The position numbers were made by a program, and so were the translations under genes. Of a stretch of 64,000 bases of DNA, positions 35,939 to 58,218 are shown in pieces (position 1 is the first letter of the stretch; every line of letters starts with the position of its first letter). The notes beneath the pieces are model-generated. The model ran no database searches and was not told the DNA's origin. It worked only from the letters and a program-made list of their open reading frames with translations. Origin of the DNA: an uncultured Bacteroidales bacterium (GTDB lineage: Bacteria; Bacteroidota; Bacteroidia; Bacteroidales; VadinHA17); NCBI GenBank assembly GCA_963750735.1, contig CAVVRY010000014.1, positions 143,568-207,567 of the forward strand. The letters are read 5' to 3'.

Positions 35939-35944
35939 TTCTAT

Positions 35945-37033: not shown

Positions 37034-37061
37034 AGCTTACATTTTTAATGGTTGATATTAA

Positions 37062-38315: not shown

Positions 38316-38340
38316 ATTATTCTCTCAAATTACACAAAAT

Positions 38341-38358
38341 AAACATGAATTGTGCCAA
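38341..38358 (-). promoter_or_regulatory. weak candidate sigma-54 (-24/-12) promoter for the efflux operon
   Basis: Minus strand reads TTGGCACAATTCATGTTT. TGGCAC is a perfect -24 element, but the -12 element is ATGT rather than consensus TTGC. It lies ~25-40 nt upstream of the hlyD-like ATG and next to a sigma-54 activator gene. Confidence 0.25.
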
Positions 38359-38545
38359 AGGCTACAAAGTCCTAATAGGCAGATCGTTAACCTTATCGAT
38401 ATATATGGCATTTAGCCCCCTGTGTTCGAAATTAGAACAATTACAGTACGAATCCGAACAATCTAAAAATAAATTATATTTTTGTAATAATAAGGGATTA
38501 TGTGAAAAAAATCCCCGATCATCAATAATAAAAATAAAATTCAAA

Positions 38546-41267: not shown

Positions 41268-41309
41268 TTGAATATAGGGATCTAATTGCAATTCTATCCA
41301 AATATCACA

Positions 41310-42299: not shown

Positions 42300-42319
42300 T
42301 CAACTATAGAATTTAAGAA

Positions 42320-43440
42320 TTATAAAATTATAGTTACATTTCCTGTGATAGGATCACTTCCATCACCCAGAGTCAATATAAACTGGTACGAATCCATTGG
42401 CAATGCTTTTCCTCCATCGGTACCATCCCATGGAATATCATATCCATTTGAGGAACTGTAAACCATCTTACCCCACCTTGTAAAGATTTCCATTCTAGCA
42501 TCCGGATACAATTCAATTCCACGTATTTGCCATGTATCGTTGAATCCATCTCCATTCGGTGTAAACACCTTAGGTATTTCGAGGCAATCGCCATCATAAG
42601 GTACATCAATATCATCTTCAACAACACACATGTTTGCATCCATAACTTCAACATGATATGCACCGCCCTCTAGATTAGTTCTATCCTCAGATGATGAAAG
42701 ATCTTCCCATGTAATACTGTATGGTTCAGTTCCGCCTGAAATATTCAAGTTAATAGCTCCATCTGCATCACCAGGACAACTTGCCGGAGTTACAGTAGGA
42801 TTAATTCTCAATACATCAGGTTGTCCAACATCAAAGGAACCATTCTGACTACATCCATCACTATCAGTGACCGTAACTGTATAGCTACCTGCTGAAAGAT
42901 TAGATACTGTTGAAACAGTCTGGCCATTAAACCATTCATAACTAAATGTTCCACTTCCTCCTGATGCTGATACAGTGGCCTCTCCATCTGAATCTCCGTT
43001 GCAACTTACATCTGTTACAGTTACATTTACTACTATTGCTGCTGGTTCATTCAAGGTAAAGCTTCCAGTTCCTGTTAATAGATTATTATCTGTCACAATT
43101 ACCTCATAATCACCTGCACCCAAAGTATTCTGATCTCTTTGTCCCTGTATAATTCCACCGCCATTTGTCGTACTCCAGTTATAGGTATATGGACTTGTTC
43201 CTCCTGCCACAGTTAAGATTATTGTACCATCGCCTGAAGAATTACAGGATAGATCGGTTGTAATACCAGTTACTGTTACTCCAAGTGGTTCAGTGACTAT
43301 GTAACTTTCATTTTCAACACATCCGTTCGCATCTGTTACAATAACATCATAGGTACCTGCAGTTAAGCCGCTTTGATCTTCATCACCTGGTACCAGACCA
43401 CTTCCATCTGAAGTACTCCAGGAGTATGTATAAGCAATAC
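42320..43440 (-). CDS. giant adhesin C-terminal fragment with type-B T9SS sorting domain
   Basis: The ORF track starts at an internal GTG (43210). My hand translation is open back to ~43440 (..YTYSWSTSDGSGLVPGDEDQSGLTAGTYDVIVTDANGC..). Ends with FTPNGDGFNDTWQI...MDSYQFILTLGDGSDPITGNVTIIL. Confidence 0.85.
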
Positions 43441-43818
43441 ACCACCATTTACATTTAAATCAATTGCACCATCATTTCCGCCATTTAAGCTTACATCTGT
43501 TACAACTGCAGTAAGTACTATTTGGGCTGGTTCAGAAATTGAAATTGTTGATCCAAATACCTCACAACCATTCACATCCCTTACTCCTATATCATAGTTA
43601 CCTGCTCCAAGTCCTGTAAAGATGCCGCCATTGGATACATAGTTTAATCCTCCGTCTACGGAATATTCATAGGGTGATGTTCCGCCTGAAACTACTATCG
43701 ATATAGTTCCATCATTTGCTCCATTACAAGTTAAATCTGTTGATGATTCACTGTCGATACTAATCGCTAGTGGATCTGTTATGGTTAAAGTCGATCCGAA
43801 AATTTCGCATCCATTCAC
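43363..43818 (-). CDS. giant adhesin frame fragment (diverged SprB-type modules)
   Basis: Modules such as TDLTCNGANDGTISIVVSGGTSPYEYSVDGGLNYVSNGGIFTGLGAGNYDIGVRDVNGC. The tail is out of frame after ..NVNGGVL. Confidence 0.8.
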   Translation of the reverse strand: MNGCEIFGSTLTITDPLAISIDSESSTDLTCNGANDGTISIVVSGGTSPYEYSVDGGLNYVSNGGIFTGLGAGNYDIGVRDVNGCEVFGSTISISEPAQIVLTAVVTDVSLNGGNDGAIDLNVNGGVLLIHTPGVLQMEVVWYQVMKIKAA

Positions 43819-44163
43819 ATCTCTTACACCTATATCATAATTACCTGCTGCAAGTCCTGTAAAGCTTCCTCCATTTGATAAATAGTTTAATCCTCCGTCT
43901 ACTGAGTATTCATATGGTGATGTTCCACCTGATACTACTATCGATATAGATCCATCATTCGCTCCATTACAGCTAATGTCTGTTGAACTTCGGAGTCTAT
44001 GTGTTATGGCGACTGGCTCAGTCTACTGATTAAGGTTGATGCCTGCAATGACCTCACAACCATTTACATCTCTTACACTTCCTATATCAGTAATTTCCTG
44101 CACTAAGGCCTATAAAACTGCCACCATTTGATTACATAATTTAATCCACCATCTACGGAATAC

Positions 44164-44799
44164 TCATACGGCTGATGTTCCACCGCTTGCGGTGACCGTT
44201 ACTGTTCCATCATTTGCTCCGTTGCATGTAATATCTGTTGATGCTTCTGAGTCTATTGTTATGGCTGCTGGTTCGGCTATGATCAGGTTGCTGCTTGCAA
44301 CTGGTCCACATCCATTGGCATCTGTTACACTTACTGTATAAGTATTTGCTGGTAAGCTTGTAAATGATCCGGTTCCATTGCTGATTGCTCCGGGGTTCAA
44401 TGTATAGATCAAAGCTCCGGTTCCACCACTGGCTGATACCGTTACTGTTCCATCATTTGCTCCGTTGCAGGTGATATCTGTCGATGCTTCTGAGTCTATG
44501 CTTATCGCTGCTGGTTCTGCTATGATCAGGTTGCTACTTACAACTGGTCCACATCCATTGGCATCGGTTACACTTACTGTATAGCTATTGGCTGAAAGGT
44601 TCGTAAATGATCCGGTTCCATTGCTGATCGCTCCTGGGTTCAATGTATAGATCAAGGCTCCTGTTCCGCCACTGGCTGTTACCGTTACTGTTCCATCATT
44701 TGCTCCGTTGCATGTAATATCTGTCGATGCTTCTGAGTCTATGTTTATCGCTACTGGTTCTGCTATGACTAAGGTTGATACGTTACTTCTGGTCCACAT
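44164..44799 (-). CDS. giant adhesin frame fragment (243-bp array, C-terminal-most copies)
   Basis: About 2.5 modules. Confidence 0.8.
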   Translation of the reverse strand: MWTRSNVSTLVIAEPVAINIDSEASTDITCNGANDGTVTVTASGGTGALIYTLNPGAISNGTGSFTNLSANSYTVSVTDANGCGPVVSSNLIIAEPAAISIDSEASTDITCNGANDGTVTVSASGGTGALIYTLNPGAISNGTGSFTSLPANTYTVSVTDANGCGPVASSNLIIAEPAAITIDSEASTDITCNGANDGTVTVTASGGTSAV

Positions 44800-45284
44800 C
44801 CATTTACATCTGTTACACTTACTGTATAGTTATTTGCTGACAGGTTTATAAATGTTCCGGTTCCATTGCTGATCGCTCCAGGGTTCAAGGTATAGATCAA
44901 GGCTGAGGTTCCACCGCTTGCTGTTACCGTTACTGTTCCATCATTTGCTCCATTGCATGTAATATCTGTTGATGCTTCTGAGTCTATGCTTATCGCTGCT
45001 GGTTCTGCTATGATCAGGTTGCTGCTTGCAACTGGTCCACATCCATTGGCATCGGTTACACTTACTGTATAAGTATTTGCTGGTAAGTTTGTAAATGATC
45101 CGGTTCCATTGCTGATTGCTCCGGGGTTCAATGTATAGATCAAAGCTCCGGTTCCGCCACTTGCGGTTACCGTTACTGTTCCATCATTTGCTCCGTTGCA
45201 GGTAATATCTGTTGATGCTTCTGAGTCTATGCTTATCGCTGCTGGTTCTGCTATGATAAGGTTGAACTTACTTCTGGTCCACAT
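44769..45284 (-). CDS. giant adhesin frame fragment (243-bp array)
   Basis: Two modules. Confidence 0.8.
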   Translation of the reverse strand: MWTRSKFNLIIAEPAAISIDSEASTDITCNGANDGTVTVTASGGTGALIYTLNPGAISNGTGSFTNLPANTYTVSVTDANGCGPVASSNLIIAEPAAISIDSEASTDITCNGANDGTVTVTASGGTSALIYTLNPGAISNGTGTFINLSANNYTVSVTDVNGCGPEVTYQP

Positions 45285-46012
45285 CCATTGGCATCGGTTA
45301 CACTTACTGTATAGCTATTGGCTGACAGGTTCGTAAATGATCCGGTTCCATTGCTGATCGCTCCAGGGTTCAATGTATAGATCAAGGCTCCGGTTCCACC
45401 GCTTGCTGTTACCGTTACTGTTCCATCATTCGCTCCGTTGCAGGTAATATCTGTTGATGCTTCTGAGTCTATGCTTATCGCTGCTGGTTCTGCTATGACT
45501 AAGCTTGAACTTACTTCTGGTCCGCATCCATTGGCATCGGTTACACTTACTGTATAAGTATTGGCTGACAGGTTTGTAAATGATCCGGTTCCATTGCTGA
45601 TCGCTCCGGGGTTCAATGTATAGATCAAAGCTCCGGTTCCGCCACTGGCTGATACTGTTACTGTTCCATCATTTGCTCCGTTGCATGTAATATCTGTTGA
45701 TGCTTCTGAGTCTATGCTTATCGCTGCTGGTTCTGCTATGACTAAGCTTGAACTTACTTCTGGTCCACATCCATTGGCATCAGTTACACTTACTGTATAG
45801 CTATTGGCTGACAGGTTCGTGAATGATCCGGTTCCATTGCTTATCGCTCCTGGGTTCAATGTATAGATCAAGGCTCCGGTTCCGCCACTGGCTGATACTG
45901 TTACTGTTCCATCATTCGCTCCGTTGCATGTAATATCTGTCGATGCTTCTGAGTCTATCGTTATGGCAGCTGGTTCGGCTATGATAAGGTTGAACTTACA
46001 TCTGGTCCGCAT
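45251..46012 (-). CDS. giant adhesin frame fragment (243-bp array)
   Basis: Three modules. Confidence 0.8.
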   Translation of the reverse strand: MRTRCKFNLIIAEPAAITIDSEASTDITCNGANDGTVTVSASGGTGALIYTLNPGAISNGTGSFTNLSANSYTVSVTDANGCGPEVSSSLVIAEPAAISIDSEASTDITCNGANDGTVTVSASGGTGALIYTLNPGAISNGTGSFTNLSANTYTVSVTDANGCGPEVSSSLVIAEPAAISIDSEASTDITCNGANDGTVTVTASGGTGALIYTLNPGAISNGTGSFTNLSANSYTVSVTDANGCGPEVSSTLS

Positions 46013-47073
46013 CCATTGGCGTCGGTTACACTTACTGTATAAGTATTGGCTGACAGGTTGGTAAAGGTTCCGGTTCCATTGCTGATCGCTCCAGGGTTCA
46101 ATGTATAGATCAGGGCTCCGGTTCCGCCACTGGCTGATACTGTTACTGTTCCATCATTTGCTCCGTTGCAGGTAATATCTGTCGATGCTTCTGAGTCTAT
46201 CGTTATGGCAGCCGGTTCGGCTATGACTAAGCTTGAACTTACTTCTGGTCCGCATCCATTGGCGTCGGTTACACTTACTGTATAAGTATTGGCTGACAGG
46301 TTGGTAAAGGTTCCGGTTCCATTGCTGATCGCTCCCGGGTTCAATGTATAGATCAAGGCTCCGGTTCCACCGCTTGCTGTTACTGTTACTGTTCCATCAT
46401 TTGCTCCGTTGCATGTAATATCTGTCGATGCTTCTGAGTCTATTGTTATCGCTGCTGGTTCTGCTATGATAAGCTTGCTACTTACAACTGGTCCACATCC
46501 ATTGGCATCGGTTACACTTACTGTATAGCTATTGGCTGACAGGTTCGTAAAGGTTCCGGTTCCATTGCTTATCGCTCCAGGGTTCAATGTATAGATCAGG
46601 GCTCCGGTTCCACCGCTTGCTGTTACTGTTACTGTTCCATCATTTGCTCCGTTGCATGTAATATCTGTCGATGCTTCTGAGTCTATTGTTATGGCTGCTG
46701 GTTCGGCTATGATCAGGTTGCTGCTTGCAACTGGTCCACATCCATTGGCATCGGTTACACTTACTGTATAGCTATTGGCTGACAGGTTCGTAAATGATCC
46801 GGTTCCATTGCTGATCGCTCCAGGGTTCAATGTATAGATCAAGGCTCCGGTTCCACCGCTTGCTGTTACCGTTACTGTTCCATCATTTGCTCCATTGCAA
46901 GTAATATCTGTTGATGCTTCTGAGTCGATGCTTATCGCTGCTGGTTCTGCTATGATCAGGTTGCTGCTGGCAACTGGTCCACATCCATTGGCATCGGTTA
47001 CACTTACTGTATAGCTATTGGCTGACAGGTTCGTAAAGGTTCCGGTTCCATTGCTGATCGCTCCCGGGTTCAA
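45979..47073 (-). CDS. giant adhesin frame fragment (243-bp array)
   Basis: About 4.5 modules. Confidence 0.8.
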   Translation of the reverse strand: MNPGAISNGTGTFTNLSANSYTVSVTDANGCGPVASSNLIIAEPAAISIDSEASTDITCNGANDGTVTVTASGGTGALIYTLNPGAISNGTGSFTNLSANSYTVSVTDANGCGPVASSNLIIAEPAAITIDSEASTDITCNGANDGTVTVTASGGTGALIYTLNPGAISNGTGTFTNLSANSYTVSVTDANGCGPVVSSKLIIAEPAAITIDSEASTDITCNGANDGTVTVTASGGTGALIYTLNPGAISNGTGTFTNLSANTYTVSVTDANGCGPEVSSSLVIAEPAAITIDSEASTDITCNGANDGTVTVSASGGTGALIYTLNPGAISNGTGTFTNLSANTYTVSVTDANGCGPDVSSTLS

Positions 47074-47168
47074 TGTATAGATCAGGGCTCCGGTTCCGCC
47101 ACTTGCTGTTACCGTTACTGTTCCATCATTCGCTCCATTGCAGGTAATATCTGTTGATGCTTCTGAGT

Positions 47169-47468
47169 CTATGTTATCGCTGCTGGTTCTGCTATGATCA
47201 GGTTGCTACTTGCAACTGGTCCACATCCATTGGCATCGGTTACACTTACTGTATAGCTATTGGCTGACAGGTTCGTAAAGGTTCCGGTTCCATTGCTGAT
47301 CGCTCCAGGGTTCAATGTATAGATCAAGGCTCCGGTTCCGCCACTTGCTGTTACCGTTACTGTTCCATCATTTGCTCCGTTGCATGTAATATCTGTCGAT
47401 GCTTCTGAGTCTATGCTTATCGCTGCTGGTTCTGCTATGATCAGGTTGTACTTGCAACTGGTCCACAT
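47169..47468 (-). CDS. giant adhesin frame fragment (243-bp array)
   Basis: One module. Confidence 0.8.
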   Translation of the reverse strand: MWTSCKYNLIIAEPAAISIDSEASTDITCNGANDGTVTVTASGGTGALIYTLNPGAISNGTGTFTNLSANSYTVSVTDANGCGPVASSNLIIAEPAAIT

Positions 47469-47800
47469 CCATTGGCATCGGTTACACTTACTGTATAGCT
47501 ATTGGCTGACAGGTTCGTAAATGATCCGGTTCCATTGCTGATAGCTCCAGGGTTCAATGTATAGATCAGGGCTCCGGTTCCGCCGCTTGCGGTTACTGTT
47601 ACTGTTCCATCATTTGCTCCGTTGCATGTAATATCTGTTGATGCTTCTGAGTCTATGCTTATCGCTGCTGGTTCTGCTATGACTAAGCTTGAACTTACTT
47701 CTGGTCCACATCCATTGGCATCGGTTACACTTACTGTATAGCTATTGGCTGAAAGGTTTGTAAATGATCCGGTTCCATTGCTGATCGCTCCAGGGTTCAA
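47441..47800 (-). CDS. giant adhesin frame fragment (243-bp array)
   Basis: About 1.5 modules. Confidence 0.8.
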   Translation of the reverse strand: MNPGAISNGTGSFTNLSANSYTVSVTDANGCGPEVSSSLVIAEPAAISIDSEASTDITCNGANDGTVTVTASGGTGALIYTLNPGAISNGTGSFTNLSANSYTVSVTDANGCGPVASTT

Positions 47801-47808
47801 TGTATAGA

Positions 47809-48297
47809 TCAGGCTCCTGTTCCGCCGCTTGCAGTTACCGTTACTGTTCCATCATTTGCTCCGTTACAGGTAATATCTGTTGATGCTTCTGAGTCTATGC
47901 TTATCGCTGCTGGTTCTGCTATGACTAAGCTTGAACTTACTTCTGGTCCACATCCATTGGCATCGGTTACACTTACTGTATAGCTATTGGCTGACAGGTT
48001 GGTGAATGATCCGGTTCCATTGCTTATAGCTCCAGGGTTCAATGTATAGATCAAGGCTCCGGTTCCGCCACTGGCTGATACTGTTACTGTTCCATCATTT
48101 GCTCCATTACAGGTAATATCTGTTGATGCTTCTGAGTCTATGCTTATCGCTGCTGGTTCTGCTATGACTAAGTTTGAACTTACTTCTGGTCCACATCCAT
48201 TGGCATCGGTTACACTTACTGTATAGCTATTGGCTGACAGGTTCGTAAATGATCCGGTTCCATTGCTGATCGCTCCCGGGTTCAATGTATAGATCAA
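47809..48297 (-). CDS. giant adhesin frame fragment (243-bp array)
   Basis: Two modules. Confidence 0.8.
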   Translation of the reverse strand: MIYTLNPGAISNGTGSFTNLSANSYTVSVTDANGCGPEVSSNLVIAEPAAISIDSEASTDITCNGANDGTVTVSASGGTGALIYTLNPGAISNGTGSFTNLSANSYTVSVTDANGCGPEVSSSLVIAEPAAISIDSEASTDITCNGANDGTVTVTASGGTGA

Positions 48298-48337
48298 AGC
48301 TCCGGTTCCGCCACTGGCTGTTACCGTTACTGTTCCA

Positions 48338-48547
48338 TCATTTGCTCCGTTGCAGGTAATATCTGTTGATGCTTCTGAGTCTATTGCTTATCGCTGCTGG
48401 TTCTGCTATGATCAGGTTGCTGCTGAGCTCGTAACTGGTCCACATCCATTGGCATCGGTTACACTTACTGTATAAGCTATTGGCTGACAGGTTCGTAAAT
48501 GATCCGGTTCCATTGCTGATTGCTCCAGGGTTCAAGGTATAGATCAA
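48338..48547 (-). CDS. giant adhesin frame fragment (243-bp array, locally scrambled)
   Basis: Starts in the module frame (IYTLNPGAISNGTGSFTNLSANS), then drifts out of frame; several indels within one repeat unit. Confidence 0.65.
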   Translation of the reverse strand: MIYTLNPGAISNGTGSFTNLSANSLYSKCNRCQWMWTSYELSSNLIIAEPAAISNRLRSINRYYLQRSK

Positions 48548-48630
48548 GGCTCCGGTTCCACCACTTGCTGATACCGTTACTGTTCCATCATTTGCTCCGT
48601 TGCATGTAATATCTGTTGATGCTTCTGAGT

Positions 48631-49419
48631 CTATGTTATGGCTGCTGGTTCTGCTATGATCAGGTTGCTACTTACTTCTGGTCCACATCCATTGGCATCG
48701 GTTACACTTACTGTATAGCTATTGGCTGACAGGTTCGTAAATGATCCGGTTCCATTGCTTATAGCTCCAGGGTTCAATGTATAGATCAAGGCTCCGGTTC
48801 CACCACTTGCGGTTACCGTTACTGTTCCATCATTTGCTCCGTTGCATGTAATATCTGTTGATGCTTCTGAGTCTATGCTTATGGCTGCTGGTTCTGCTAT
48901 GATCAGGTTGCTACTTACTTCTGGTCCACATCCATTGGCATCGGTTACACTTACTGTATAGCTATTGGCTGACAGGTTGGTGAATGATCCGGTTCCATTG
49001 CTTATAGCTCCAGGGTTCAATGTATAGATCAAGGCTCCGGTTCCGCCGCTTGCTGTTACCGTTACTGTTCCATCATTTGCTCCATTACAGGTAATATCTG
49101 TTGATGCTTCTGAGTCTATGCTTATCGCTGCTGGTTCTGCTATGACTAAGCTTGAACTTACTTCTGGTCCACATCCATTGGCATCGGTTACACTTACTGT
49201 ATAGCTATTGGCTGACAGGTTGGTGAATGATCCGGTTCCATTGCTGATCGCTCCCGGGTTCAATGTATAGATCAGGGCTCCGGTTCCGCCACTGGCTGAT
49301 ACCGTTACTGTTCCATCATTCGCTCCATTGCAGGTAATATCTGTTGATGCTTCTGAGTCTATGCTTATCGCTGCTGGTTCTGCTATGATCAGGTTGCTGA
49401 ACTGACAACTGGTCCACAT
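48631..49419 (-). CDS. giant adhesin frame fragment (243-bp array)
   Basis: Three modules, bounded by frame breaks. Confidence 0.8.
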   Translation of the reverse strand: MWTSCQFSNLIIAEPAAISIDSEASTDITCNGANDGTVTVSASGGTGALIYTLNPGAISNGTGSFTNLSANSYTVSVTDANGCGPEVSSSLVIAEPAAISIDSEASTDITCNGANDGTVTVTASGGTGALIYTLNPGAISNGTGSFTNLSANSYTVSVTDANGCGPEVSSNLIIAEPAAISIDSEASTDITCNGANDGTVTVTASGGTGALIYTLNPGAISNGTGSFTNLSANSYTVSVTDANGCGPEVSSNLIIAEPAAIT

Positions 49420-49661
49420 CCATTGGCATCGGTTACACTTACTGTATAGCTATTGGCTGACAGGTTCGTAAATGTTCCGGTTCCATTGCTTATAGCTCCA
49501 GGGTTCAATGTATAGATCAAGGCTCCGGTTCCGCCACTTGCTGTTACCGTTACTGTTCCATCATTTGCTCCGTTGCATGTAATATCTGTTGATGCTTCTG
49601 AGTCGATGCTTATGGCTGCTGGTTCTGCTATGATCAGGTTGAACTTACTTCTGGTCCACAT
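49389..49661 (-). CDS. giant adhesin frame fragment (243-bp array)
   Basis: One module, bounded by linker frame breaks. Confidence 0.8.
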   Translation of the reverse strand: MWTRSKFNLIIAEPAAISIDSEASTDITCNGANDGTVTVTASGGTGALIYTLNPGAISNGTGTFTNLSANSYTVSVTDANGCGPVVSSAT

Positions 49662-50146
49662 CCATTGGCATCGGTTACACTTACTGTATAGCTATTGGCT
49701 GACAGGTTGGTAAATGTTCCGGTTCCATTGCTGATTGCTCCAGGGTTCAAGGTATAGATCAAGGCTCCGGTTCCGCCGCTTGCGGTTACTGTTACTGTTC
49801 CATCATTTGCTCCGTTGCATGTGATATCTGTTGATGCTTCTGAGTCTATGCTTATCGCTGCTGGTTCTGCTATGACTAAGCTTGAACTTACTTCTGGTCC
49901 ACATCCGTTGGCATCGGTTACACTTACTGTATAGCTATTGGCTGACAGGTTTGTAAATGATCCGGTTCCATTGCTGATCGCTCCAGGGTTCAAGGTATAG
50001 ATCAAAGCTCCTGTTCCGCCGCTTGCTGTTACCGTTACTGTTCCATCATTTGCTCCGTTACAGGTAATATCTGTCGATGCTTCTGAGTCTATGCTTATCG
50101 CTGCTGGTTCTGCTATGATCAGGTTGTACTTACTTCTGGTCCACAT
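49634..50146 (-). CDS. giant adhesin frame fragment (243-bp array)
   Basis: Two modules, bounded by breaks in the inter-module linker. Confidence 0.8.
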   Translation of the reverse strand: MWTRSKYNLIIAEPAAISIDSEASTDITCNGANDGTVTVTASGGTGALIYTLNPGAISNGTGSFTNLSANSYTVSVTDANGCGPEVSSSLVIAEPAAISIDSEASTDITCNGANDGTVTVTASGGTGALIYTLNPGAISNGTGTFTNLSANSYTVSVTDANGCGPEVSST

Positions 50147-51705
50147 CCGTTGGCATCGGTTACACTTACTGTATAGCTATTGGCTGACAGGTTGGTGAAT
50201 GATCCGGTTCCATTGCTTATAGCTCCAGGGTTCAATGTATAGATCAAGGCTCCTGTTCCGCCACTGGCTGATACCGTTACTGTTCCATCATTTGCTCCAT
50301 TGCAGGTAATATCTGTTGATGCTTCTGAGTCTATAGTTATCGCTGCTGGTTCTGCTATGACTAAGTTTGAACTTACTTCTGGTCCACATCCATTGGCATC
50401 GGTTACACTTACTGTATAGCTATTGGCTGACAGGTTGGTAAATGATCCGGTTCCATTGCTTATAGCTCCAGGGTTCAATGTATAGATCAAGGCTCCGGTT
50501 CCGCCACTTGCTGTTACCGTTACTGTTCCATCATTTGCTCCGTTGCATGTAATATCTGTTGATGCTTCTGAGTCGATGCTTATCGCTGCTGGTTCGGCTA
50601 TGATCAGGTTGCTGCTTACAACTGGTCCACATCCATTGGCATCTGTTACACTTACTGTATAGCTATTGGCTGACAGGTTCGTGAATGATCCGGTTCCATT
50701 GCTTATTGCTCCAGGGTTCAAGGTATAGATCAGGGCTCCGGTGCCGCCGCTTGCGGTTACTGTTACTGTTCCATCGTTTGCTCCGTTGCATGTGATATCT
50801 GTTGATGCTTCTGAGTCTATGCTTATCGCTGCTGGTTCTGCTATGACTAAGCTTGAACTTACTTCTGGTCCACATCCGTTGGCATCGGTTACACTTACTG
50901 TATAGCTATTGGCTGACAGGTTCGTAAATGATCCGGTTCCATTGCTGATAGCTCCTGGGTTCAAGGTATAGATCAAGGCTCCGGTTCCGCCGCTTGCAGT
51001 TACAGTTACTGTTCCATCATTTGCTCCGTTGCAGGTAATATCTGTCGATGTTTCTGAGTCTATGCTTATCGCTGCTGGTTCTGCTATGATCAGGTTGCTG
51101 CTTACAACTGGTCCACATCCATTGGCATCGGTTACACTTACTGTATAGCTATTGGCTGACAGGTTCGTGAATGATCCGGTTCCATTGCTTATAGCTCCCG
51201 GGTTCAATGTATAGATCAAGGCTCCGGTTCCGCCGCTGGCTGTTACTGTTACTGTTCCATCATTTGCTCCATTGCAGGTAATATCTGTTGATGCTTCTGA
51301 GTCTATACTTATCGCTGCTGGTTCTGCTATGACTAAGTTTGAACTTACTTCTGGTCCACATCCATTGGCATCGGTTACACTTACTGTATAGCTATTGGCT
51401 GACAGGTTCGTGAATGATCCGGTTCCATTGCTTATAGCTCCAGGGTTCAATGTATAGATCAGGGCTCCGGTTCCGCCACTGGCTGATACCGTTACTGTTC
51501 CATCATTTGCTCCGTTGCATGTAATATCTGTTGATGCTTCTGAGTCGATGCTTATCGCTGCTGGTTCGGCTATGATCAGGTTGCTGCTTACTACTGGTCC
51601 ACATCCATTGGCGTCGGTTACACTTACTGTATAGCTATTGGCTGACAGGTTCGTAAATGATCCGGTTCCATTGCTGATTGCTCCAGGGTTCAATGTATAG
51701 ATCAA
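50119..51705 (-). CDS. giant adhesin frame fragment (243-bp array, ~6.5 intact modules)
   Basis: 528 aa of uninterrupted 81-aa modules. Confidence 0.85.
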   Translation of the reverse strand: MIYTLNPGAISNGTGSFTNLSANSYTVSVTDANGCGPVVSSNLIIAEPAAISIDSEASTDITCNGANDGTVTVSASGGTGALIYTLNPGAISNGTGSFTNLSANSYTVSVTDANGCGPEVSSNLVIAEPAAISIDSEASTDITCNGANDGTVTVTASGGTGALIYTLNPGAISNGTGSFTNLSANSYTVSVTDANGCGPVVSSNLIIAEPAAISIDSETSTDITCNGANDGTVTVTASGGTGALIYTLNPGAISNGTGSFTNLSANSYTVSVTDANGCGPEVSSSLVIAEPAAISIDSEASTDITCNGANDGTVTVTASGGTGALIYTLNPGAISNGTGSFTNLSANSYTVSVTDANGCGPVVSSNLIIAEPAAISIDSEASTDITCNGANDGTVTVTASGGTGALIYTLNPGAISNGTGSFTNLSANSYTVSVTDANGCGPEVSSNLVIAEPAAITIDSEASTDITCNGANDGTVTVSASGGTGALIYTLNPGAISNGTGSFTNLSANSYTVSVTDANGCGPEVSTT

Positions 51706-52576
51706 AGCTCCGGTTCCGCCGCTTGCTGTTACTGTTACTGTTCCATCGTTTGCTCCGTTGCATGTAATATCTGTTGATGCTTCTGAGTCTATGCTTATCG
51801 CTGCTGGTTCTGCTATGACTAAGCTTGATACTTACTTCTGGTCCACATCCATTGGCATCGGTTACACTTACTGTATAGCTATTGGCTGACAGGTTCGTAA
51901 ATGTTCCGGTTCCATTGCTTATAGCTCCAGGGTTCAAGGTATAGATCAGGGCTCCGGTTCCGCCGCTTGCTGTTACCGTTACTGTTCCATCATTTGCTCC
52001 GTTGCATGTAATATCTGTCGATGCTTCTGAGTCTATGCTTATCGCTGCTGGTTCGGCTATGATCAGGTTGCTGCTTGCAACTGGTCCACATCCATTGGCA
52101 TCGGTTACACTTACTGTATAGCTATTGGCTGACAGGTTCGTAAATGATCCGGTTCCATTGCTGATTGCTCCGGGGTTCAATGTATAGATCAGGGCTCCGG
52201 TTCCACCGCTTGCTGTTACCGTTACTGTTCCATCATTTGCTCCGTTGCATGTAATATCTGTCGATGCTTCTGAGTCTATGCTTATCGCTGCTGGTTCTGC
52301 TATGATCAGCTTGCAACTTACTTCTGGTCCACATCCATTGGCATCGGTTACACTTACTGTATAGCTATTGGCTGACAGGTTGGTAAATGATCCGGTTCCA
52401 TTGCTGATCGCTCCCGGGTTCAATGTATAGATCAAGGCTCCGGTTCCGCCGCTGGCTGATACTGTTACTGTTCCATCATTTGCTCCGTTGCATGTAATAT
52501 CTGTTGATGCTTCTGAGTCTATGTTATCGCTGCTGGTTCTGCTATGATCAGGTTGCTGCTGGCAACTGGTCCACAT
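51635..52576 (-). CDS. giant adhesin frame fragment (243-bp array)
   Basis: Module sequence in its middle part. The first and last ~40-80 aa are out-of-frame readings of the same repeat (..SHSRTSSDKHRLRSINRY..). Confidence 0.75.
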   Translation of the reverse strand: MWTSCQQQPDHSRTSSDNIDSEASTDITCNGANDGTVTVSASGGTGALIYTLNPGAISNGTGSFTNLSANSYTVSVTDANGCGPEVSCKLIIAEPAAISIDSEASTDITCNGANDGTVTVTASGGTGALIYTLNPGAISNGTGSFTNLSANSYTVSVTDANGCGPVASSNLIIAEPAAISIDSEASTDITCNGANDGTVTVTASGGTGALIYTLNPGAISNGTGTFTNLSANSYTVSVTDANGCGPEVSIKLSHSRTSSDKHRLRSINRYYMQRSKRWNSNSNSKRRNRSFDLYIEPWSNQQWNRIIYEPVSQ

Positions 52577-52908
52577 CCATTGGCATCGGTTACACTTACT
52601 GTATAGCTATTGGCTGACAGGTTCGTAAAGGTTCCGGTTCCATTGCTTATAGCTCCAGGGTTCAATGTATAGATCAAAGCTCCGGTTCCACCACTTGCGG
52701 TTACCGTTACTGTTCCATCGTTTGCTCCGTTGCATGTAATATCTGTCGATGCTTCTGAGTCGATGCTTATGACTGCTGGTTCAGCTATGATCAGGTTGCT
52801 GCTGGCAACTGGTCCACATCCATTGGCATCGGTTACACTTACTGTATAGTTATTGGCTGACAGGTTCGTAAATGATCCGGTTCCATTGCTGATTGCTCCG
52901 GGGTTCAA
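52519..52908 (-). CDS. giant adhesin frame fragment (243-bp array)
   Basis: 81-aa module sequence (TDITCNGANDGTVTVTASGGTGALIYTLNPGAISNGTG.FTNLSAN.YTVSVTDANGCGP), bounded by frame breaks. Confidence 0.8.
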   Translation of the reverse strand: MNPGAISNGTGSFTNLSANNYTVSVTDANGCGPVASSNLIIAEPAVISIDSEASTDITCNGANDGTVTVTASGGTGALIYTLNPGAISNGTGTFTNLSANSYTVSVTDANGCGPVASSNLIIAEPAAIT

Positions 52909-53092
52909 TGTATAGATCAGGGCTCCGGTTCCGCCGCTTGCAGTTACCGTTACTGTTCCATCATTTGCTCCGTTGCAGGTAATATCTGTTGATGCTTCTG
53001 AGTCTATGCTTATCGCTGCTGGTTCGGCTATGACTCAGGTTGTGCTGACAACTGGTCCACATCCATTGGCATCGGTTACACTTACTGTATAG

Positions 53093-56000
53093 CTATTGGC
53101 TGACAGGTTCGTAAATGTATCCGGTTCCATTGCTGATTGCTCCAGGGTTCAATGTATAGATCAGGGCTCCGGTTCCGCCACTTGCTGTTACAGTTACTGT
53201 TCCATCATTTGCTCCGTTGCAGGTAATATCTGTTGATGCTTCTGTGTCTATGCTTATCGCTGCTGGTTCTGCTATGACTAAGCTTGAACTTACTTCTGGT
53301 CCACATCCATTGGCGTCGGTTACACTTACTGTATAAGTATTTGCTGACAGGTTTGTGAATGATCCGGTTCCATTGCTGATCGCTCCAGGGTTCAAGGTAT
53401 AGATCAGGGCTCCGGTGCCGCCGCTTGCTGTTACTGTTACTGTTCCATCATTCGCTCCGTTGCAGGTAATATCTGTTGATGCTTCTGAGTCTATCGTTAT
53501 GGCAGCCGGTTCGGCTATGACTAAGCTTGAACTTACTTCTGGTCCGCATCCATTGGCGTCGGTTACACTTACTGTATAAGTATTGGCTGACAGGTTGGTA
53601 AAGGTTCCGGTTCCATTGCTGATCGCTCCCGGGTTCAATGTATAGATCAAAGCTCCGGTTCCGCCACTGGCTGATACTGTTACTGTTCCATCATTTGCTC
53701 CGTTGCATGTAATATCTGTTGATGCTTCTGTGTCTATGCTTATCGCTGCTGGTTCTGTTACTACTAAGCTTGAACTTACTTCCGGTCCACATCCATTGGC
53801 ATCAGTTACACTTACTGTATAAGTATTGGCTGACAGGTTCGTAAATGATCCGGTTCCATTGCTTATAGCTCCGGGGTTCAATGTATAGATCAAGGCTCCT
53901 GTTCCGCCACTGGCTGATACTGTTACTGTTCCATCATTTGCTCCGTTGCATGTGATATCTGTCGATGTTTCTGAGTCTATTGTTATGGCTGCTGGTTCAG
54001 CTACAACATAATTATCACTAATAGTTGCTGAATTAGCATCTGTAACAATTACTGTATAGGTTCCTGCTGTTAATCCTGTTTGATCCTCATCTCCAACCAC
54101 TAATCCACTTCCATCTAATGTACTCCATGCATAACTGTATGGACTTATTCCTCCTCCTACTGTTATACTTATTGAGCCACTATTTGTTCCATTGCAATCA
54201 ACATCTGTTACTACACCTGTCAAGGTTAATGAACCAGGTTCTGTGACTGTATAGATACCACTTTCTGTACATCCATTTATATCGGTTACAAGTACTGTAT
54301 ATGTTCCTGCAGTTAATCCGGTTTGATCCTCATCTCCTACTACTAATCCACTTCCATCCAATGTGCTCCATGCAAAAGTATAAGGGCTCGTTCCTCCAAT
54401 TACAGTTAAAGCTATAGCTCCATCATTCCCTCCTGCTACACTAACATTTGTAATTACACCAGTAACTGAAAGAGTAGCTCCCGGTTGGGTAATCGTTACC
54501 GCTACATCAAAGATACATAGGCCTGCATCTCTTACTCTGACTGTATAATTGTTCGCTGACAGTGAACCAAATGTGCCTGAAGCCTGGTAAGTTGTTCCTC
54601 CGTCTATTGAGTATTCATATGGGGCTGTGCCATCTGAACCGGCTACCGTTACTGTTCCTGTTGCATCTCCAAAGCAGGCTACATCTGTTTGTGCTGTTAT
54701 GCTGCCTGAAAGTGCTGCTGCCGGTTGGGTAATCGTTACCGCTACATCAAAGGTACATAGGCCTGCATCTCTTACTCTGACTGTATAGTTGTTGGCTGAT
54801 AATCCTGCAAAAGTACCTGAAGCCTGGTAAGTTGTTCCTCCGTCTATTGAGTATTCATATGGTGCGGTCCCATCTGATCCGGCTACCGTTACTGTTCCTG
54901 TTGCATCGCCGAAGCAGGCTACATCTGTCTGTGCTGTTATGCTTCCGCTTAGGGCTGCCGCCGGTTGGGTGATCGTTACCGCTACATCAAAGGTACATAG
55001 GCCTGCATCTCTTACTCTGACAGTATAGTTGTTGGCTGACAGTGAACCAAATGTGCCTGAAGCCTGGTAAGTTGTTCCTCCGTCTATTGAGTATTCATAT
55101 GGGGCGGTTCCATCTGATCCGGCTACCGTTACTGTTCCTGTTGCATCGCCGAAGCAGGCTACATCTGTTTGTGCTGTTATGCTTCCTGTAAGTGCTGCTG
55201 CCGGTTGGGTAATCGTTACCGCTACATCAAAGGTACATAGGCCTGCATCTCTTACTCTGACTGTATAGTTGTTGGCTGACAGTAACTCAAATGTGCCTGA
55301 AGCCTGGTAGGTTGTGCCTCCGTCTATTGAGTATTCATATGGTGCTGTCCCATCTGATCCGGCTACCGTTACTGTTCCTGTTGCATCTCCAAAGCAGGCT
55401 ACATCTGTTTGTGCTGTTATGCTTCCTCTTAGTGCTGCTGCCGGTTGGGTAATCGTTACCGCTACATCAAAGGTACATAGGCCTGCATCTCTTACTCTAA
55501 CTGTATAGTTGTTGGCTGATAATCCTGCAAAAGTACCTGAAGCCTGGTAAGTTGTTCCTCCGTCTATTGAGTATTCATATGGGGCGGTTCCATCTGATCC
55601 GGCTACCGTTACTGTTCCTGTTGCATCTCCAAAGCAGGCTACATCTGTCTGTGCTGTTATGCTTCCTGAAAGTGCTGCTGCCGGTTGGGTAATCGTTACC
55701 GCTACATCAAAGGTACATAGGCCTGCATCTCTTACTCTAACTGTATAGTTGTTGGCTGATAATCCTGCAAATGTACCTGAAGCCTGGTAGGTTGTTCCTC
55801 CGTCTATTGAGTATTCATATGGAGCTGTGCCATCTGATCCGGCTACCGTTACTGTTCCTGTTGCATCTCCAAAGCAGGCTACATCTGTTTGTGCTGTTAT
55901 GCTTCCGCTTAGTGCTGCGGCTGGTTGGGTAATCGTTACCGCTACATCAAAGGTACATAGGCCTGCATCTCTTACTCTGACTGTATAGTTGTTCGCTGAC

Positions 56001-56385
56001 AGTGAACCAAATGTGCCTGAAGCCTGGTAAGTTGTTCCTCCGTCTATTGAGTATTCATATGGGGCGGTCCCATCTGAGCCGGCTACCGTTACTGTTCCTG
56101 TTGCATCTCCGAAGCAGGCTACATCTGTCTGTGCTGTTATGCTTCCGCTTAGGGCTGCTGCCGGTTGGGTAATCGTTACCGCTACATCAAAGGTACATAG
56201 GCCTGCATCTCTTACTCTAACTGTATAGTTGTTGGCTGATAATCCTGCAAAAGTACCTGAAGCCTGGTAAGTTGTTCCTCCGTCTATTGAGTATTCATAT
56301 GGAGCTGTGCCATCTGATCCGGCTACCGTTACTGTTCCTGTTGCATCTCCGAAGCAGGCTACATCTGTTTGTGCTGTTATGCTTC
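53093..56385 (-). CDS. giant adhesin frame fragment spanning the junction of the 240-bp and 243-bp arrays
   Basis: The ORF track lists only 53093..54361 because the first start-type codon is a TTG at 54361. My hand translation stays open upstream (..AGLCIFDVAVTITQPGATLSVTGVITNVSVAGGNDGAIALTVIGGTSPYTFAWSTLDGSG..). The repeat marker ccggttgggt recurs exactly every 240 nt from 54481 to 56161, so there is no net indel until ~56387. Confidence 0.75.
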
Positions 56386-56425
56386 CTAAAGTGCTGCTGC
56401 CGGTTGGGTGATCGTTACCGCTACA

Positions 56426-56929
56426 TCAAAGGTACATAGGCCTGCATCTCTTACTCTGACTGTATAATTGTTCGCTGATAAACGCAAATGTACCTGAAGC
56501 CTGGTAAGTTGTTCCTCCGTCTATTGAGTATTCATATGGGGCGGTCCCATCTGAACCGGCTACCGTTATTGTTCCTGTTGCATCTCCAAAGCAGGCTACA
56601 TCTGTCTGTGCTGTTATGCTTCCGCTTAGGGCTGCTGCCGGTTGGGTAATCGTTACCGCTACATCAAAGGTACAACCATTTAAATCCTGAACCGTAACAA
56701 TGTAATTATTTGCAATTAGACCACTGAATGTACCTGAAGCCTGGTAAGCTCCTCCATTTAAACTGTATTGGTATGTTGGAACACCTCCTGCTCCTGCCAC
56801 AGTAGCTGATCCTGTTGCATCGCCGAAGCAGGCTATATTCGTTTGGGCAGAAATAGAACCAGATACAGCTGAGGCTGGCTGAGTAATCGTTACATTAACA
56901 TCATAAGTACAGGAATTGGCATCACGCAC
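56426..56929 (-). CDS. giant adhesin frame fragment (240-bp module array)
   Basis: Same modules; nearly identical to residues of fragment 57088..58218. The tail is out of frame (FISEQLYSQSKRCRPMYL*). Confidence 0.8.
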   Translation of the reverse strand: MRDANSCTYDVNVTITQPASAVSGSISAQTNIACFGDATGSATVAGAGGVPTYQYSLNGGAYQASGTFSGLIANNYIVTVQDLNGCTFDVAVTITQPAAALSGSITAQTDVACFGDATGTITVAGSDGTAPYEYSIDGGTTYQASGTFAFISEQLYSQSKRCRPMYL

Positions 56930-57087
56930 AGTAACGATGTAATTATTAGCACTTAAACTACTGAAGGTGCCCGAAAGTTGGAATGATCCACCGTCCAGAC
57001 TATATTGATATGGTGCAGTTCCATCTGAGCCGGCTACCGTTACTGTTCCGGTTGCATCTCCAAAGCAGGCTACATCGGTTTGTGCTG

Positions 57088-58218
57088 TTATGCTTCCGCT
57101 AATGCTGCGGCTGGTTGGGTAATCGTTACCGCTACATCAAAGGTACATAGGCCTGCATCTCTTACTCTAACTGTATAATTATTCGCTGACAGAGAACCAA
57201 ATGTGCCTGATGCCTGGTAGGTTGTTCCTCCGTCTATTGAGTATTCATATGGGGCGGTCCCATCTGAACCGGCTACCGTAATTGTTCCTGTTGCATCTCC
57301 AAAGCAGGCTACATCTGTCTGTGCTGTTATGCTTCCGCTTAGGGCTGCTGCCGGTTGGGTAATCGTTACCGCTACATCAAAGGTACAACCATTTAAATCC
57401 TGAACCGTAACAATGTAATTATTTGCAATTAGACCACTGAATGTACCAGAAGCCTGGTAAGCTCCTCCATTTAAACTGTATTGGTATGTTGGAACACCTC
57501 CTGCTCCTGCCACAGTAACTGATCCTGTTGCATCGCCGAAGCAGGCTATATTCGTTTGGGCAGAAATAGAACCAGATACAGCTGAGGCTGGCTGAGTAAT
57601 CGTTACATTAACATCATAAGTACAGGAATTGGCATCACGCACAGTAACGATGTAATTATTAGCACTTAAACTACTGAAGGTGCCCGAAAGTTGGAATGAT
57701 CCACCGTCCAGACTATATTGATATGGTGCAGTTCCATCTGAGCCGGCTACCGTTACTGTTCCGGTTGCATCTCCGAAGCAAGCTACATCTGTCTGCGCCG
57801 TTATACTTCCTGAAAGAGCTGCGGCTGGTTGGGTGATTGTTACCGCTACATCAAAGGTACATAGGCCTGCATCTCTTACTCTGACTGTATAATTATTGAC
57901 TGATAATCCTGCAAATGTGCCTGATGCCTGGTAAGTTGTTCCTCCGTCTATTGAGTATTCATATGGAGCTGTGCCATCTGATCCGGCTACCGTTACTGTT
58001 CCTGTTGCATCGCCGAAGCAGGCTACATTGGTCTGGGAAGCAATAATGCCTGTTAGGGCTGCTACCGGTTGGGTAATCGTTACTGCTACATCAAAGGTAC
58101 ATAGGCCTGCATCTCTTACTCTGACTGTATAATTGTTCGCTGACAGGGAACCTAAATGTGCCTGAAGCCTGGTAGGTCGTACCACCATCAATTGAGTATT
58201 CATATGGAGCTGTGCCAT
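57088..58218 (-). CDS. giant adhesin frame fragment (240-bp module array)
   Basis: Continues the 80-aa ACFGDATG...YEYSIDGGTTYQASGTF modules. Overlaps the previous fragment in another frame, so it is not an independent gene. Confidence 0.8.
   Translation of the reverse strand: MAQLHMNTQLMVVRPTRLQAHLGSLSANNYTVRVRDAGLCTFDVAVTITQPVAALTGIIASQTNVACFGDATGTVTVAGSDGTAPYEYSIDGGTTYQASGTFAGLSVNNYTVRVRDAGLCTFDVAVTITQPAAALSGSITAQTDVACFGDATGTVTVAGSDGTAPYQYSLDGGSFQLSGTFSSLSANNYIVTVRDANSCTYDVNVTITQPASAVSGSISAQTNIACFGDATGSVTVAGAGGVPTYQYSLNGGAYQASGTFSGLIANNYIVTVQDLNGCTFDVAVTITQPAAALSGSITAQTDVACFGDATGTITVAGSDGTAPYEYSIDGGTTYQASGTFGSLSANNYTVRVRDAGLCTFDVAVTITQPAAALAEA

What the first reader, a model, noticed from the sequence alone, without database searches (positions are those of the whole stretch)
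44165..54000. About 40 tandem 243-bp repeats that are a mosaic of a few two-state sites
Seen in sequence: the period is exactly 243 nt (81 codons) over ~9.8 kb. Copies differ almost only at a few positions: GP(E/V)(V/A)SS(S/N/K)L(V/I)IAEP in the linker, AAI(S/T)ID, TV(T/S)ASGG, GTG(S/T)FTN and SAN(S/T/N)YTV, plus some wobble bases. All combinations of these states occur, for example EVSSSLVI, VASSNLII, EVSSNLII, EVSSNLVI and VVSSNLII. Inference: this shuffling is what repeated unequal crossover and gene conversion within the array would produce. Such an array should be unstable in copy number, giving strain-to-strain or within-population variation in filament length.
Basis: partly seen in the sequence, partly recalled or inferred. 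Interest (0 to 1): 0.7.

Follow-up and report, generated by a model that had tools for sequence, protein, structure and literature searches.

The report
Adhesin repeat array with assembly-blurred mosaic
The roughly 40 near-identical 243-bp repeats are real and form the stalk of a giant SprB-type surface adhesin gene of a sediment Bacteroidales bacterium, but the fine shuffling of variants between copies cannot be trusted, because the assembly has demonstrably blended different copies together.

Summary
The array is real: TRF finds 44177-54003, period 243, 40.4 copies, coding on the minus strand. It is the middle of one ~21.4 kb (~7,100 codon) gene, 63739->42320. That gene has a signal peptide, SprB repeats, a CHU_C type-B T9SS C-terminal domain, and a PorP/SprF gene directly downstream.

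The two-state sites are real. Of 49 variable columns, 37 lie at codon position 3. The same sites recur in two other contigs and in Illumina unitigs. All state combinations do occur: linkage falls to background within ~20 nt.

However, "exactly 243" is wrong. Fourteen of 40 units are 242-248 nt, and the reading frame is broken about 17 times. All 17 indels sit at two-state sites and read as hybrids of the in-frame states. In four Illumina metagenomes the tested hybrid has zero support. Flanking genes are intact. So the consensus mixed different units or strains, and the unit-by-unit mosaic is unreliable.

Short-read depth supports at least 30-70 units per genome equivalent. The locus architecture differs between populations. 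Recombination and length variation are therefore plausible, but not shown.

This is a known kind of protein (SprB-like, "periscope"-type adhesin) and of modest interest.

The parts
42320..63739 (-). One giant SprB-family adhesin gene of ~7,100 codons. As assembled, about 20 frame breaks cut it into pieces, all of them within its repeats.
   Evidence: An ORF of 1,882 aa starts at ATG 63739 (MPSRIKFFLLISLILIISGNFKASFSQ...). Open pieces in alternating frames continue down to the stop at 42320. Pfam SprB (PF13573) matches every piece tested.
60221..63739 (-). N-terminal signal peptide and ~1,170-aa non-SprB region containing PKD-like domains. This is the likely distal, functional end.
   Evidence: Translation. 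PF19408 PKD_6 matches at aa 607-672. The frame is intact across this stretch.
54477..58318 (-). Older array of 16 SprB-repeat units with a 240-nt period and 81% matches. It contains three frame breaks.
   Evidence: TRF and the frame map. Illumina unitigs carry an extra G after 56387, which restores the frame there.
54003..54454 (-). Boundary module of two divergent SprB units just upstream of the 243-nt array.
   Evidence: It is 99% identical to L011:1581-2032. In L011 this module occurs twice, 3,647 nt apart, and the two copies are 729/729 identical. Illumina unitigs of X5, X7 and X28 enter it from a 243-type unit rather than from the 240-nt array. Only X1 shows the window's own junction.
44278..54001 (-). 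The finding itself: 40 units (u01-u40) of an 81-codon SprB-repeat domain. Twenty-six units are 243 nt long and 14 are 242-248 nt.
52521..52523 (-). Example of a frame-breaking hybrid: unit u07 reads ATAACATA, a blend of the in-frame states ATAAGCATA and ATAACAATA. The same class occurs in u23 and u29, and u24 has the +1 form ATAAGCAATA.
   Evidence: In X5, X7, X28 and X1, 100% of the unitig depth spanning this site carries a 1-nt insertion (AGC, ACA or ACG state). The hybrid has 0 of 56.8, 104.7, 54.8 and 523.9 depth units.
50114..50136 (-). Example of a linker hybrid in u16: GAAGTAAGTACAACCTGATCATA, 24 nt where 25 are expected. It is an out-of-register chimera of the in-frame linker haplotypes.
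   Evidence: No Illumina unitig crosses it. The loose ends at this place show only the in-frame linker states: EVSSSLVI, EVSSNLVI, and the V(A/V)SS (AGCAG) linker type.
43559..44331 (-). Three divergent 243-nt units (76% matches) between the array and the C-terminal region. Further frame breaks lie here.
   Evidence: TRF. The Illumina-supported insertion of A after 43434 turns 42320-44022 into one open frame. One X5 unitig lacks one unit here, skipping 254 nt.
42332..42580 (-). CHU_C type-B T9SS C-terminal sorting domain.
   Evidence: PF13585, E = 2.8e-21, covering aa 294-376 of the piece 42320-43459. This region is 79% identical to the C-terminus of the ortholog in L009.
41310..42299 (-). PorP/SprF-family outer-membrane protein gene directly downstream. 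It is the presumed cognate secretion and anchoring partner.
   Evidence: TIGR03519, E = 1.8e-74, 250.8 bits against a cut-off of 90.55.

Best explanation
The region is the central stalk of a single giant SprB-family cell-surface adhesin gene of an uncultured coastal-sediment Bacteroidales bacterium.

What the protein is and does:
- It is exported by Sec.
- It is carried across the outer membrane by the type IX secretion system through its type-B (CHU_C) C-terminal domain.
- It is held on the surface by the PorP/SprF-like protein encoded immediately downstream.
- About 40 head-to-tail copies of an 81-residue SprB-repeat domain, predicted to be an Ig-like beta-sandwich, make a long rod. The rod projects the ~1,170-residue N-terminal region away from the cell.

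What the array variation means:
- The array is a young or continually homogenised expansion (concerted evolution) under purifying selection on the protein.
- Its two-state sites are real differences among copies.
- The particular combination of states in each unit of this window is not a faithful record.
- The sequence is a consensus, most likely from long-read metagenome assembly or polishing, in which reads from different units or co-existing strains were piled together.
- That mixing produced column-wise blends. They are visible as frame-breaking hybrids at the multi-nucleotide sites. They are invisible, but presumably as frequent, at the single-nucleotide sites.

Shown versus inferred:
- Shown: gene identity and architecture; reality of the variant sites; assembly hybrids; high copy number in nature; differing locus architectures.
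- Inferred: rod function, gliding or adhesion role, recombination as the homogenising process, and the technology behind the errors.
For: Family and architecture:
- SprB repeats, CHU_C and PKD_6.
- PorP/SprF downstream.
- Type-B CTD proteins bind their adjacent PorP-like partner (PMC9143113).
- The unit model has 7 beta-strands, pLDDT 79. Its weak best structural matches are Ig-like, intimin, FN3 and PKD domains.

Real variants:
- 37 of 49 variable columns are at codon position 3.
- The same sites occur in L010 and L011, with frequencies correlated at r = 0.66-0.70.
- The AGC, ACA and ACG states and the linker haplotypes are seen in Illumina unitigs.

Consensus mixing:
- 17 of 17 indels lie at two-state sites. 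Fourteen of them fall in 12 of the 243 positions (P = 3e-16).
- They read as blends or out-of-register chimeras of the in-frame states.
- The hybrid tested has zero support in four Illumina runs.
- Illumina-supported single-base insertions repair frame breaks at 43434 and 56387.
- There are 17 indel events in 9.7 kb of array, but no broken gene in ~42 kb of flank and no coding indel against X5 or X7 in 34000-43400.
- The same hybrid class occurs in the independent contigs L010 and L011.
- L011's two super-copies are 729/729 identical in the divergent module but differ at 173 of 3,310 positions in the array part.
- Array 31-mers are held 3-5 times less often than flank 31-mers by the closest runs: X5 0.15 against 0.72.
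- Four gametes occur between wobble sites 3 nt apart.

Copy number:
- Unitig depth piled on one unit is ~340, 300, 180 and 1,250, against single-copy depth of ~5, 4, 3 and 38 in X5, X7, X28 and X1.
Against: - No reads of the source sample could be examined. The Illumina runs are related populations (31-mer share 0.4-0.7 in the flank), not the source, so absence of a hybrid there does not strictly prove its absence in the source strain.
- Simple mis-registration of reads should homogenise units rather than randomise them. Why minor states persist at 10-45% is not explained in detail.
- Illumina unitigs inside the array are only 45-122 nt long at k = 31. The real sequence graph is therefore also highly branched, and much local recombination of states may be genuine.
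- The depth-based copy number is rough. It may include a paralogous array (the L010-type gene).
- The fold matches are weak: no E-value at or below 0.001.
Confidence: 0.72

Rival explanations
1. The mosaic is faithful. Within one genome, the ~50 two-state sites really are in near linkage equilibrium. They have been shuffled by very frequent unequal crossover and short-tract gene conversion, or by patchy mismatch repair of heteroduplex. Only the few indels are errors.
For: - Four gametes in 84-93% of site pairs, with a smooth decay of LD over distance.
- The same variant pool is present in three assembled arrays.
- Illumina unitigs in the array are very short (45-122 nt). Between 62 and 190 distinct unitigs were laid on a single 241-nt stretch, so real DNA holds many local combinations.
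- L011's identical 729-nt modules flank array parts that differ by 5.2%, which fast conversion restricted to the homogeneous units would also produce.
Against: - The consensus demonstrably blended states at 17 places, all of them two-state sites. The same blending at SNP sites would be invisible.
- Random association already holds between sites 3 nt apart, for example 93/96 and 159/162.
- None of 84 units in three assemblies is identical to another, and neighbouring units are not more alike. This is unlike arrays that grow by duplication.
- Illumina diversity may come from several strains and paralogous arrays rather than from one array.
Confidence: 0.2
2. The array length and layout themselves are mis-assembled. 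The true locus has a substantially different number of units, or it contains internal copies of the 486/729-nt module, as in L011. The assembler dropped or collapsed them.
For: - In X5, X7 and X28, which are among the runs closest to the window in the flank, every unitig leaving the boundary module at 54454 continues into a 243-type unit (the L011-type junction). The module has about twice single-copy depth: 10.8 against ~5.
- The window-type junction is seen only in X1, with 6 mismatches in 143 nt.
- L011 shows a 3,647-nt super-period.
Against: - The window-type junction does exist in one natural population.
- Depth ratios fit tens of units per genome.
- The different layouts can simply be strain variants.
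Confidence: 0.25
3. The gene is a decaying pseudogene, and the frameshifts are real mutations.
For: About 20 frame breaks and one in-frame stop in the assembled sequence.
Against: - Variation among units is overwhelmingly synonymous.
- Breaks occur only at two-state sites, as hybrids of in-frame states.
- They are absent from Illumina populations, which carry only in-frame states.
- Illumina-supported bases repair two breaks outside the array.
- The 5.6-kb non-repetitive N-terminal part has no break.
Confidence: 0.03

Closest known systems
SprB of Flavobacterium johnsoniae (669-kDa gliding-motility adhesin) with its partner SprF
   Same: - Giant, highly repetitive surface protein built of SprB repeats (PF13573).
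- Type-B CHU_C C-terminal domain.
- porP/sprF-like gene immediately downstream, with no porE-like gene beside it. PMC9143113 associates that arrangement with mobile adhesins.
- Similar size: ~7,100 aa here.
   Different: - The organism is an uncultured, probably anaerobic sediment Bacteroidales. Gliding is not shown.
- Here 40 units are ~91% identical at the DNA level.
- The N-terminal 1,170-aa region is not shown to be homologous to that of SprB.
- The upstream sprC and sprD genes cannot be checked, because the window ends 261 nt upstream of the start codon.
Periscope proteins (Whelan et al. 2021, PMC8201768), for example Sgo_0707, SasG, Rib, Esp, CdrA
   Same: - A tandem array of highly similar folded domains forms a rod between the cell anchor and a distal domain.
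- High DNA identity is expected to allow intragenic recombination and length variation between strains.
   Different: - That class was defined from isolate genomes with demonstrated length variation. Here, length variation of this array is only indirectly suggested.
- Neither SprB nor Bacteroidetes is mentioned in that paper's main text.
- The anchor is at the C-terminus, through a T9SS PorP-like protein rather than sortase or LPXTG.
Consensus (allele- or copy-mixing) errors of long-read assemblies in tandem repeats. This rests on general knowledge, not on a cited source.
   Same: Indels and chimeric strings appear exactly where the piled-up sequences differ by multi-nucleotide replacements. 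The error rate is high in repeats and negligible in unique flanks.
   Different: The sequencing technology and pipeline of this window are unknown. The inference rests on the error pattern and on comparison with short-read unitigs.

Membership tests
SprB-family T9SS type-B adhesin | Multiple SprB repeats (Pfam PF13573) | tested here: met
   E = 4e-81, 1.6e-122, 1e-28 and 6.6e-51 on the four pieces tested. Nine, 14, 3 and 5 repeat stretches were matched.
SprB-family T9SS type-B adhesin | Type-B C-terminal sorting domain (CHU_C, PF13585) at the extreme C-terminus | tested here: met
   PF13585, E = 2.8e-21, covering aa 294-376 of the last 379 residues. The stop codon is at 42320.
SprB-family T9SS type-B adhesin | Cognate PorP/SprF-family gene adjacent and co-directional | tested here: met
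   41310-42299 (-) matches TIGR03519 at 250.8 bits, against a cut-off of 90.55. It starts 21 nt after the adhesin's stop codon.
SprB-family T9SS type-B adhesin | N-terminal Sec signal peptide | tested here: inconclusive
   MPSRIKFFLLISLILIISGNFKASFSQ looks like a signal peptide on inspection. No predictor was available.
SprB-family T9SS type-B adhesin | Propelled along the cell surface and required for gliding; sprC and sprD upstream | not testable with these tools
   This needs experiments. The window ends 261 nt upstream of the start codon.
Periscope proteins (variable-length surface rods) | Tandem array of long, highly identical repeats that encode folded domains | tested here: met
   Forty units, 92% matches by TRF. 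Units are 93-100% identical at the protein level. The unit model is a beta-sandwich with pLDDT 79.
Periscope proteins (variable-length surface rods) | Repeat number differs between strains | tested here: inconclusive
   - The ortholog in the nearest GTDB MAG has 2.7 related units, but that is a short-read contig that could be collapsed.
- L011 and Illumina unitigs show a different layout.
- No read spans the array, and no long-read run was listed by the Nanopore-restricted search.
Periscope proteins (variable-length surface rods) | Rod projects a functional domain away from the anchored end | not tested
   The architecture fits: C-terminal anchor, N-terminal 1,170-aa region with PKD-like domains. 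The function of the N-terminal region is unknown.

The most novel reading that the evidence does not exclude
The array, and a second array of the same unit family in another gene or strain (L010), really share a pool of ~50 mostly synonymous two-state sites that are reshuffled down to single-site resolution. This would mean an unusually fine-grained conversion process, such as patchy repair of heteroduplex between repeats, acting continuously inside and between giant adhesin genes. It would generate a different stalk sequence in almost every cell line.
Probability: 0.12. Interest if true: 0.55.

Novelty: new member of a known kind. Interest (0 to 1): 0.25.

Why it matters
There are two practical points.

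First, it is a clear worked example of a general trap. The "mosaic" fine structure of near-identical tandem repeats in metagenome-assembled sequence can be produced or exaggerated by consensus calling. The tell-tale is frame-breaking hybrids located exactly at multi-nucleotide variant sites. Population-genetic tests such as the four-gamete test should not be run on such consensus sequence.

Second, it documents that sediment Bacteroidales carry SprB-type adhesins with very large, highly homogeneous repeat stalks: tens of units per genome in four independent metagenomes. The locus layouts differ between populations. This extends the "variable-length surface rod" idea to T9SS type-B adhesins, if spanning reads confirm length variation.

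Tried and rejected
1. An exact-pattern scan of JGI metagenome contigs for the unit gave 0 hits.
2. A protein-based scan of the same collection found only distant SprB proteins, at most 45% identical. It was of no use for this array.
3. No gene with exactly the window's SprF product is on record in the encoding-contig collection.
4. The raw Illumina runs X41 and X42 gave no reads on the locus.
5. A search for Nanopore runs listed none.
6. I suspected that site 51 (A/C next to CATG) was a methylation-type basecalling artefact, because no alternative letter was listed there. I rejected this: a unit with the other state recruits equal depth. Both states exist in Illumina data, and the table under-reports variants where mismatches are dense.
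7. A higher-order period in the window's array was not found. Mean differences by offset are flat, and there is no neighbour effect.
8. A single-sequence AlphaFold model of two units was useless (pLDDT 41). The PDB sequence search found nothing.
9. Programmed frameshifting or simple-repeat phase variation was rejected. The breaks are not in homopolymers or short repeats; they are at hybrid variant sites.
10. Recoding of TGA was considered because of the stop in fmt. It is rejected as a genome-wide feature, since the other ORFs are intact under table 11.

Full report
OBSERVATION

Tandem Repeats Finder reports an array at 44177-54003 with period 243, 40.4 copies and 92% matches. A second, older array lies upstream at 54477-58318 (period 240, 16 copies, 81% matches). 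A short divergent 243-nt array lies at 43559-44331.

The coding strand is minus. One unit reads AEPAAITIDSETSTDITCNGANDGTVTVSASGGTGALIYTLNPGAISNGTGSFTNLSANTYTVSVTDANGCGPEVSSSLV(I/V).

I cut the array at a conserved anchor and obtained 40 units plus a divergent 41st. Twenty-six units are 243 nt. Fourteen are 242, 244, 245 or 248 nt, caused by 17 indel events. The period is therefore not exact. The minus-strand frame is broken into about 17 open pieces in three frames between 58227 and 43363.

At the nucleotide level, 49 columns have a minor state in at least 3 units, and 37 of them are at codon position 3 (P = 2e-9).

The four-gamete test supports "all combinations occur". All four gametes appear in 84-93% of site pairs more than 20 nt apart. 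Mean r2 is 0.39 at 1-3 nt, 0.26 at 4-9 nt, 0.11 at 10-20 nt and ~0.04 beyond, against 0.025 for permuted data. Twenty of 28 pairs of variable residues show four gametes.

No two units are identical (minimum 5, mean 21.3 differences). Neighbouring units are not more alike than distant ones, and there is no clear higher-order period.

WHAT THE LOCUS IS

The array is the middle of one gene that runs from ATG 63739 to the stop at 42320, about 21.4 kb or ~7,100 codons once the frame is repaired. Its parts are:
- a signal-peptide-like N-terminus;
- a ~1,170-aa non-repeat region with PKD-like domains;
- diverged SprB repeats;
- the 240-nt array;
- a two-unit boundary module (54003-54454);
- the 40-unit array;
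- three divergent units;
- a CHU_C type-B T9SS sorting domain.

The next gene downstream, 41310-42299 on the same strand, is a PorP/SprF-family protein. [quoted passage not shown] Mobile adhesins have no porE-like gene beside it (PMC9143113), and the window fits that arrangement.

SprB of F. johnsoniae is a 669-kDa repetitive adhesin that forms surface filaments (PMC7918930).

A unit model built on an alignment of the window's own diverged units has seven beta-strands (pLDDT 79). Its best, weak, PDB matches are Ig-like, intimin, FN3 and PKD domains.

The organism is an uncultured Bacteroidales:
- The best SprF match in GTDB is 84% identical, to a Bacteroidales MAG (isolate ChS5.bin.2).
- Salt-marsh and sediment metagenomes hold 0.4-0.7 of the flank's 31-mers.
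- A subtilase with a type-A T9SS tail is also in the window.

ARE THE TWO-STATE SITES REAL?

Yes. Three results support this:
- The codon-position bias cannot come from sequencing error.
- The same sites, with correlated frequencies (r = 0.66-0.70), occur in two contigs of an independent ENA assembly, L010 and L011.
- When Illumina unitigs of four metagenomes are piled on one unit, the in-frame states appear. AGC takes 59-91%, ACA 7-30% and ACG 0-11% of the spanning depth at the S/T site, and the loose ends at the linker show only the in-frame linker states.

IS THE MOSAIC FAITHFUL?

There is strong evidence that it is not, at least not unit by unit.

(a) All 17 indels lie at two-state sites. 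Fourteen fall in the two multi-nucleotide sites, which together occupy 12 of 243 positions (P = 3e-16).

(b) The aberrant strings are blends of the in-frame states:
- ATAACATA and ATAAGCAATA, from ATAAGCATA and ATAACAATA;
- TACA, from TCA and ACA;
- AGCT, from AGC and ACT;
- linkers of 24, 26, 27 and 30 nt, three of which are simple two-piece chimeras joined one base out of register.
In-register recombination in a cell cannot change the length. A column-wise or graph consensus over a mixed pile of reads can.

(c) In X5, X7, X28 and X1, every unitig spanning 52521-52523 carries a one-base insertion relative to the window. The hybrid has 0 of 56.8, 104.7, 54.8 and 523.9 depth units, although it makes up 3 of 40 units in the window. 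No unitig crosses the linker hybrid of u16.

(d) Outside the array, single-base insertions seen in Illumina unitigs repair the frame. One A after 43434 turns 42320-44022 into one ORF. One G after 56387 restores the frame there.

(e) The errors are specific to repeats. There are 1.7 indels per kb in the array. No broken gene is visible in ~42 kb of flank: DnaK, XseA, AspA, kinases and others are full length. There is no coding indel against X5 or X7 in 34000-43400.

(f) L010 and L011 show the same hybrid class at the same sites. In L011, two super-copies 3,647 nt apart are 729/729 identical in the divergent module but differ at 173 of 3,310 positions in the array part, at the same two-state sites.

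(g) L011's boundary module is 99% identical to the window's. Yet its array matches the window's at only 92-93% in every register, and the natural register is no better than the others. None of the 84 units in the three assemblies is identical to another.

(h) The closest Illumina runs hold 0.15 of the array's 31-mers, against 0.72 of the flank's.

(i) Wobble sites only 3 nt apart already show all four gametes with low D', for example 93/96 and 159/162. Recombination junctions can hardly produce this.

CAVEATS THAT KEEP THE BIOLOGICAL READING ALIVE

- The Illumina runs are related populations, not the source sample.
- Unitigs in the array are only 45-122 nt long, and 62-190 distinct unitigs were laid on one 241-nt stretch. 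Real DNA therefore contains many local combinations as well. This diversity may reside in one array, in paralogous arrays, or in different strains.
- I therefore rate a real, substantial mosaic as likely. I rate this window's exact pattern as unreliable.

COPY NUMBER AND INSTABILITY

Depth piled on one unit is ~340 (X5), ~300 (X7), ~180 (X28) and ~1,250 (X1). Single-copy depth in the flank is ~5, ~4, ~3 and ~38. This gives at least 30-70 units per genome equivalent. It is a lower bound, because dense mismatches limit recruitment of unitigs. It may also include the L010-type gene, which has a different N-terminal part with 405/408-nt repeats followed by at least 20 units of the same family.

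The nearest GTDB relative has an ortholog of 1,771 aa. Its C-terminus is 79% identical, and it has only 2.7 related units. That is a short-read contig, so collapse cannot be excluded.

The layout of the locus varies. In X5, X7 and X28, the boundary module is entered from a 243-type unit, as in L011. Only X1 shows the window's junction from the 240-nt array.

These results make structural variation credible. They do not measure length variation of this array. No spanning reads were available.

COMPARISON WITH KNOWN SYSTEMS

By every sequence criterion that could be tested, the gene belongs to the SprB / type-B-CTD adhesin kind. Its homogeneous stalk matches the concept of Periscope proteins, in which high DNA identity between tandem domains allows intragenic recombination and variable length (PMC8201768). 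Strain-level length variation, the defining behaviour of that class, remains untested here.

VERDICT

This is a real and large SprB-repeat array in a known kind of adhesin. The variant sites are real. The mosaic is substantially blurred by assembly consensus errors. Recombination and length variation are plausible but undemonstrated. Interest is low to moderate.

Noticed in passing
window 374-1304 (+), stop codon at 582-584: The methionyl-tRNA formyltransferase gene has an in-frame TGA (DPDFLSS*IKLNADL). Illumina unitigs of X5, X14 and the near-identical strain in X1 read TGC (Cys) at this codon. An abundant ~95%-identical strain in X1 keeps the A. This could be a base error, a nonsense polymorphism or a Sec/Cys pair. 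No Rfam SECIS match was found.
   Followed up: partly
window 23340-23436 (-): A TPP riboswitch (RF00059, 66.7 bits) lies directly upstream of the TonB-dependent receptor gene 21590-23320. This suggests thiamine-regulated outer-membrane uptake.
   Followed up: no
window 15012-16883 (-): An aspartate ammonia-lyase carries an N-terminal cyclic-nucleotide-binding domain (PF00027, aa 35-115). This is an unusual fusion.
   Followed up: no
L010 1-9100 (ENA ERZ25039514 contig_92315): A different giant gene, with CUB- and PKD-like parts and 405/408-nt repeat arrays, has no DNA similarity to the window's N-terminal part. It runs into at least 20 units of the same 243-nt repeat family (~91% identical). 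The unit family is therefore shared between two gene contexts, or the contig is chimeric.
   Followed up: partly
window 54454 and L011 1305-2033, 4952-5680: The two-unit boundary module upstream of the array occurs twice in L011, 3,647 nt apart, and the two copies are 729/729 identical. In X5, X7 and X28 the module has about twice single-copy depth and is preceded by a 243-type unit. The window's junction with the 240-nt array is seen only in X1.
   Followed up: partly
window 43749-44004: One X5 unitig skips 254 nt, that is one unit, of the divergent 3-copy array. It also lacks about 9 bases that the window has in 44024-44076. This is either a copy-number difference or further consensus insertions in the window.
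   Followed up: no
window 10883-14763 (+) and 7709-9352 (+): Two tandem paralogous TPR-histidine kinase genes, and a subtilase with a type-A T9SS sorting tail.
   Followed up: no
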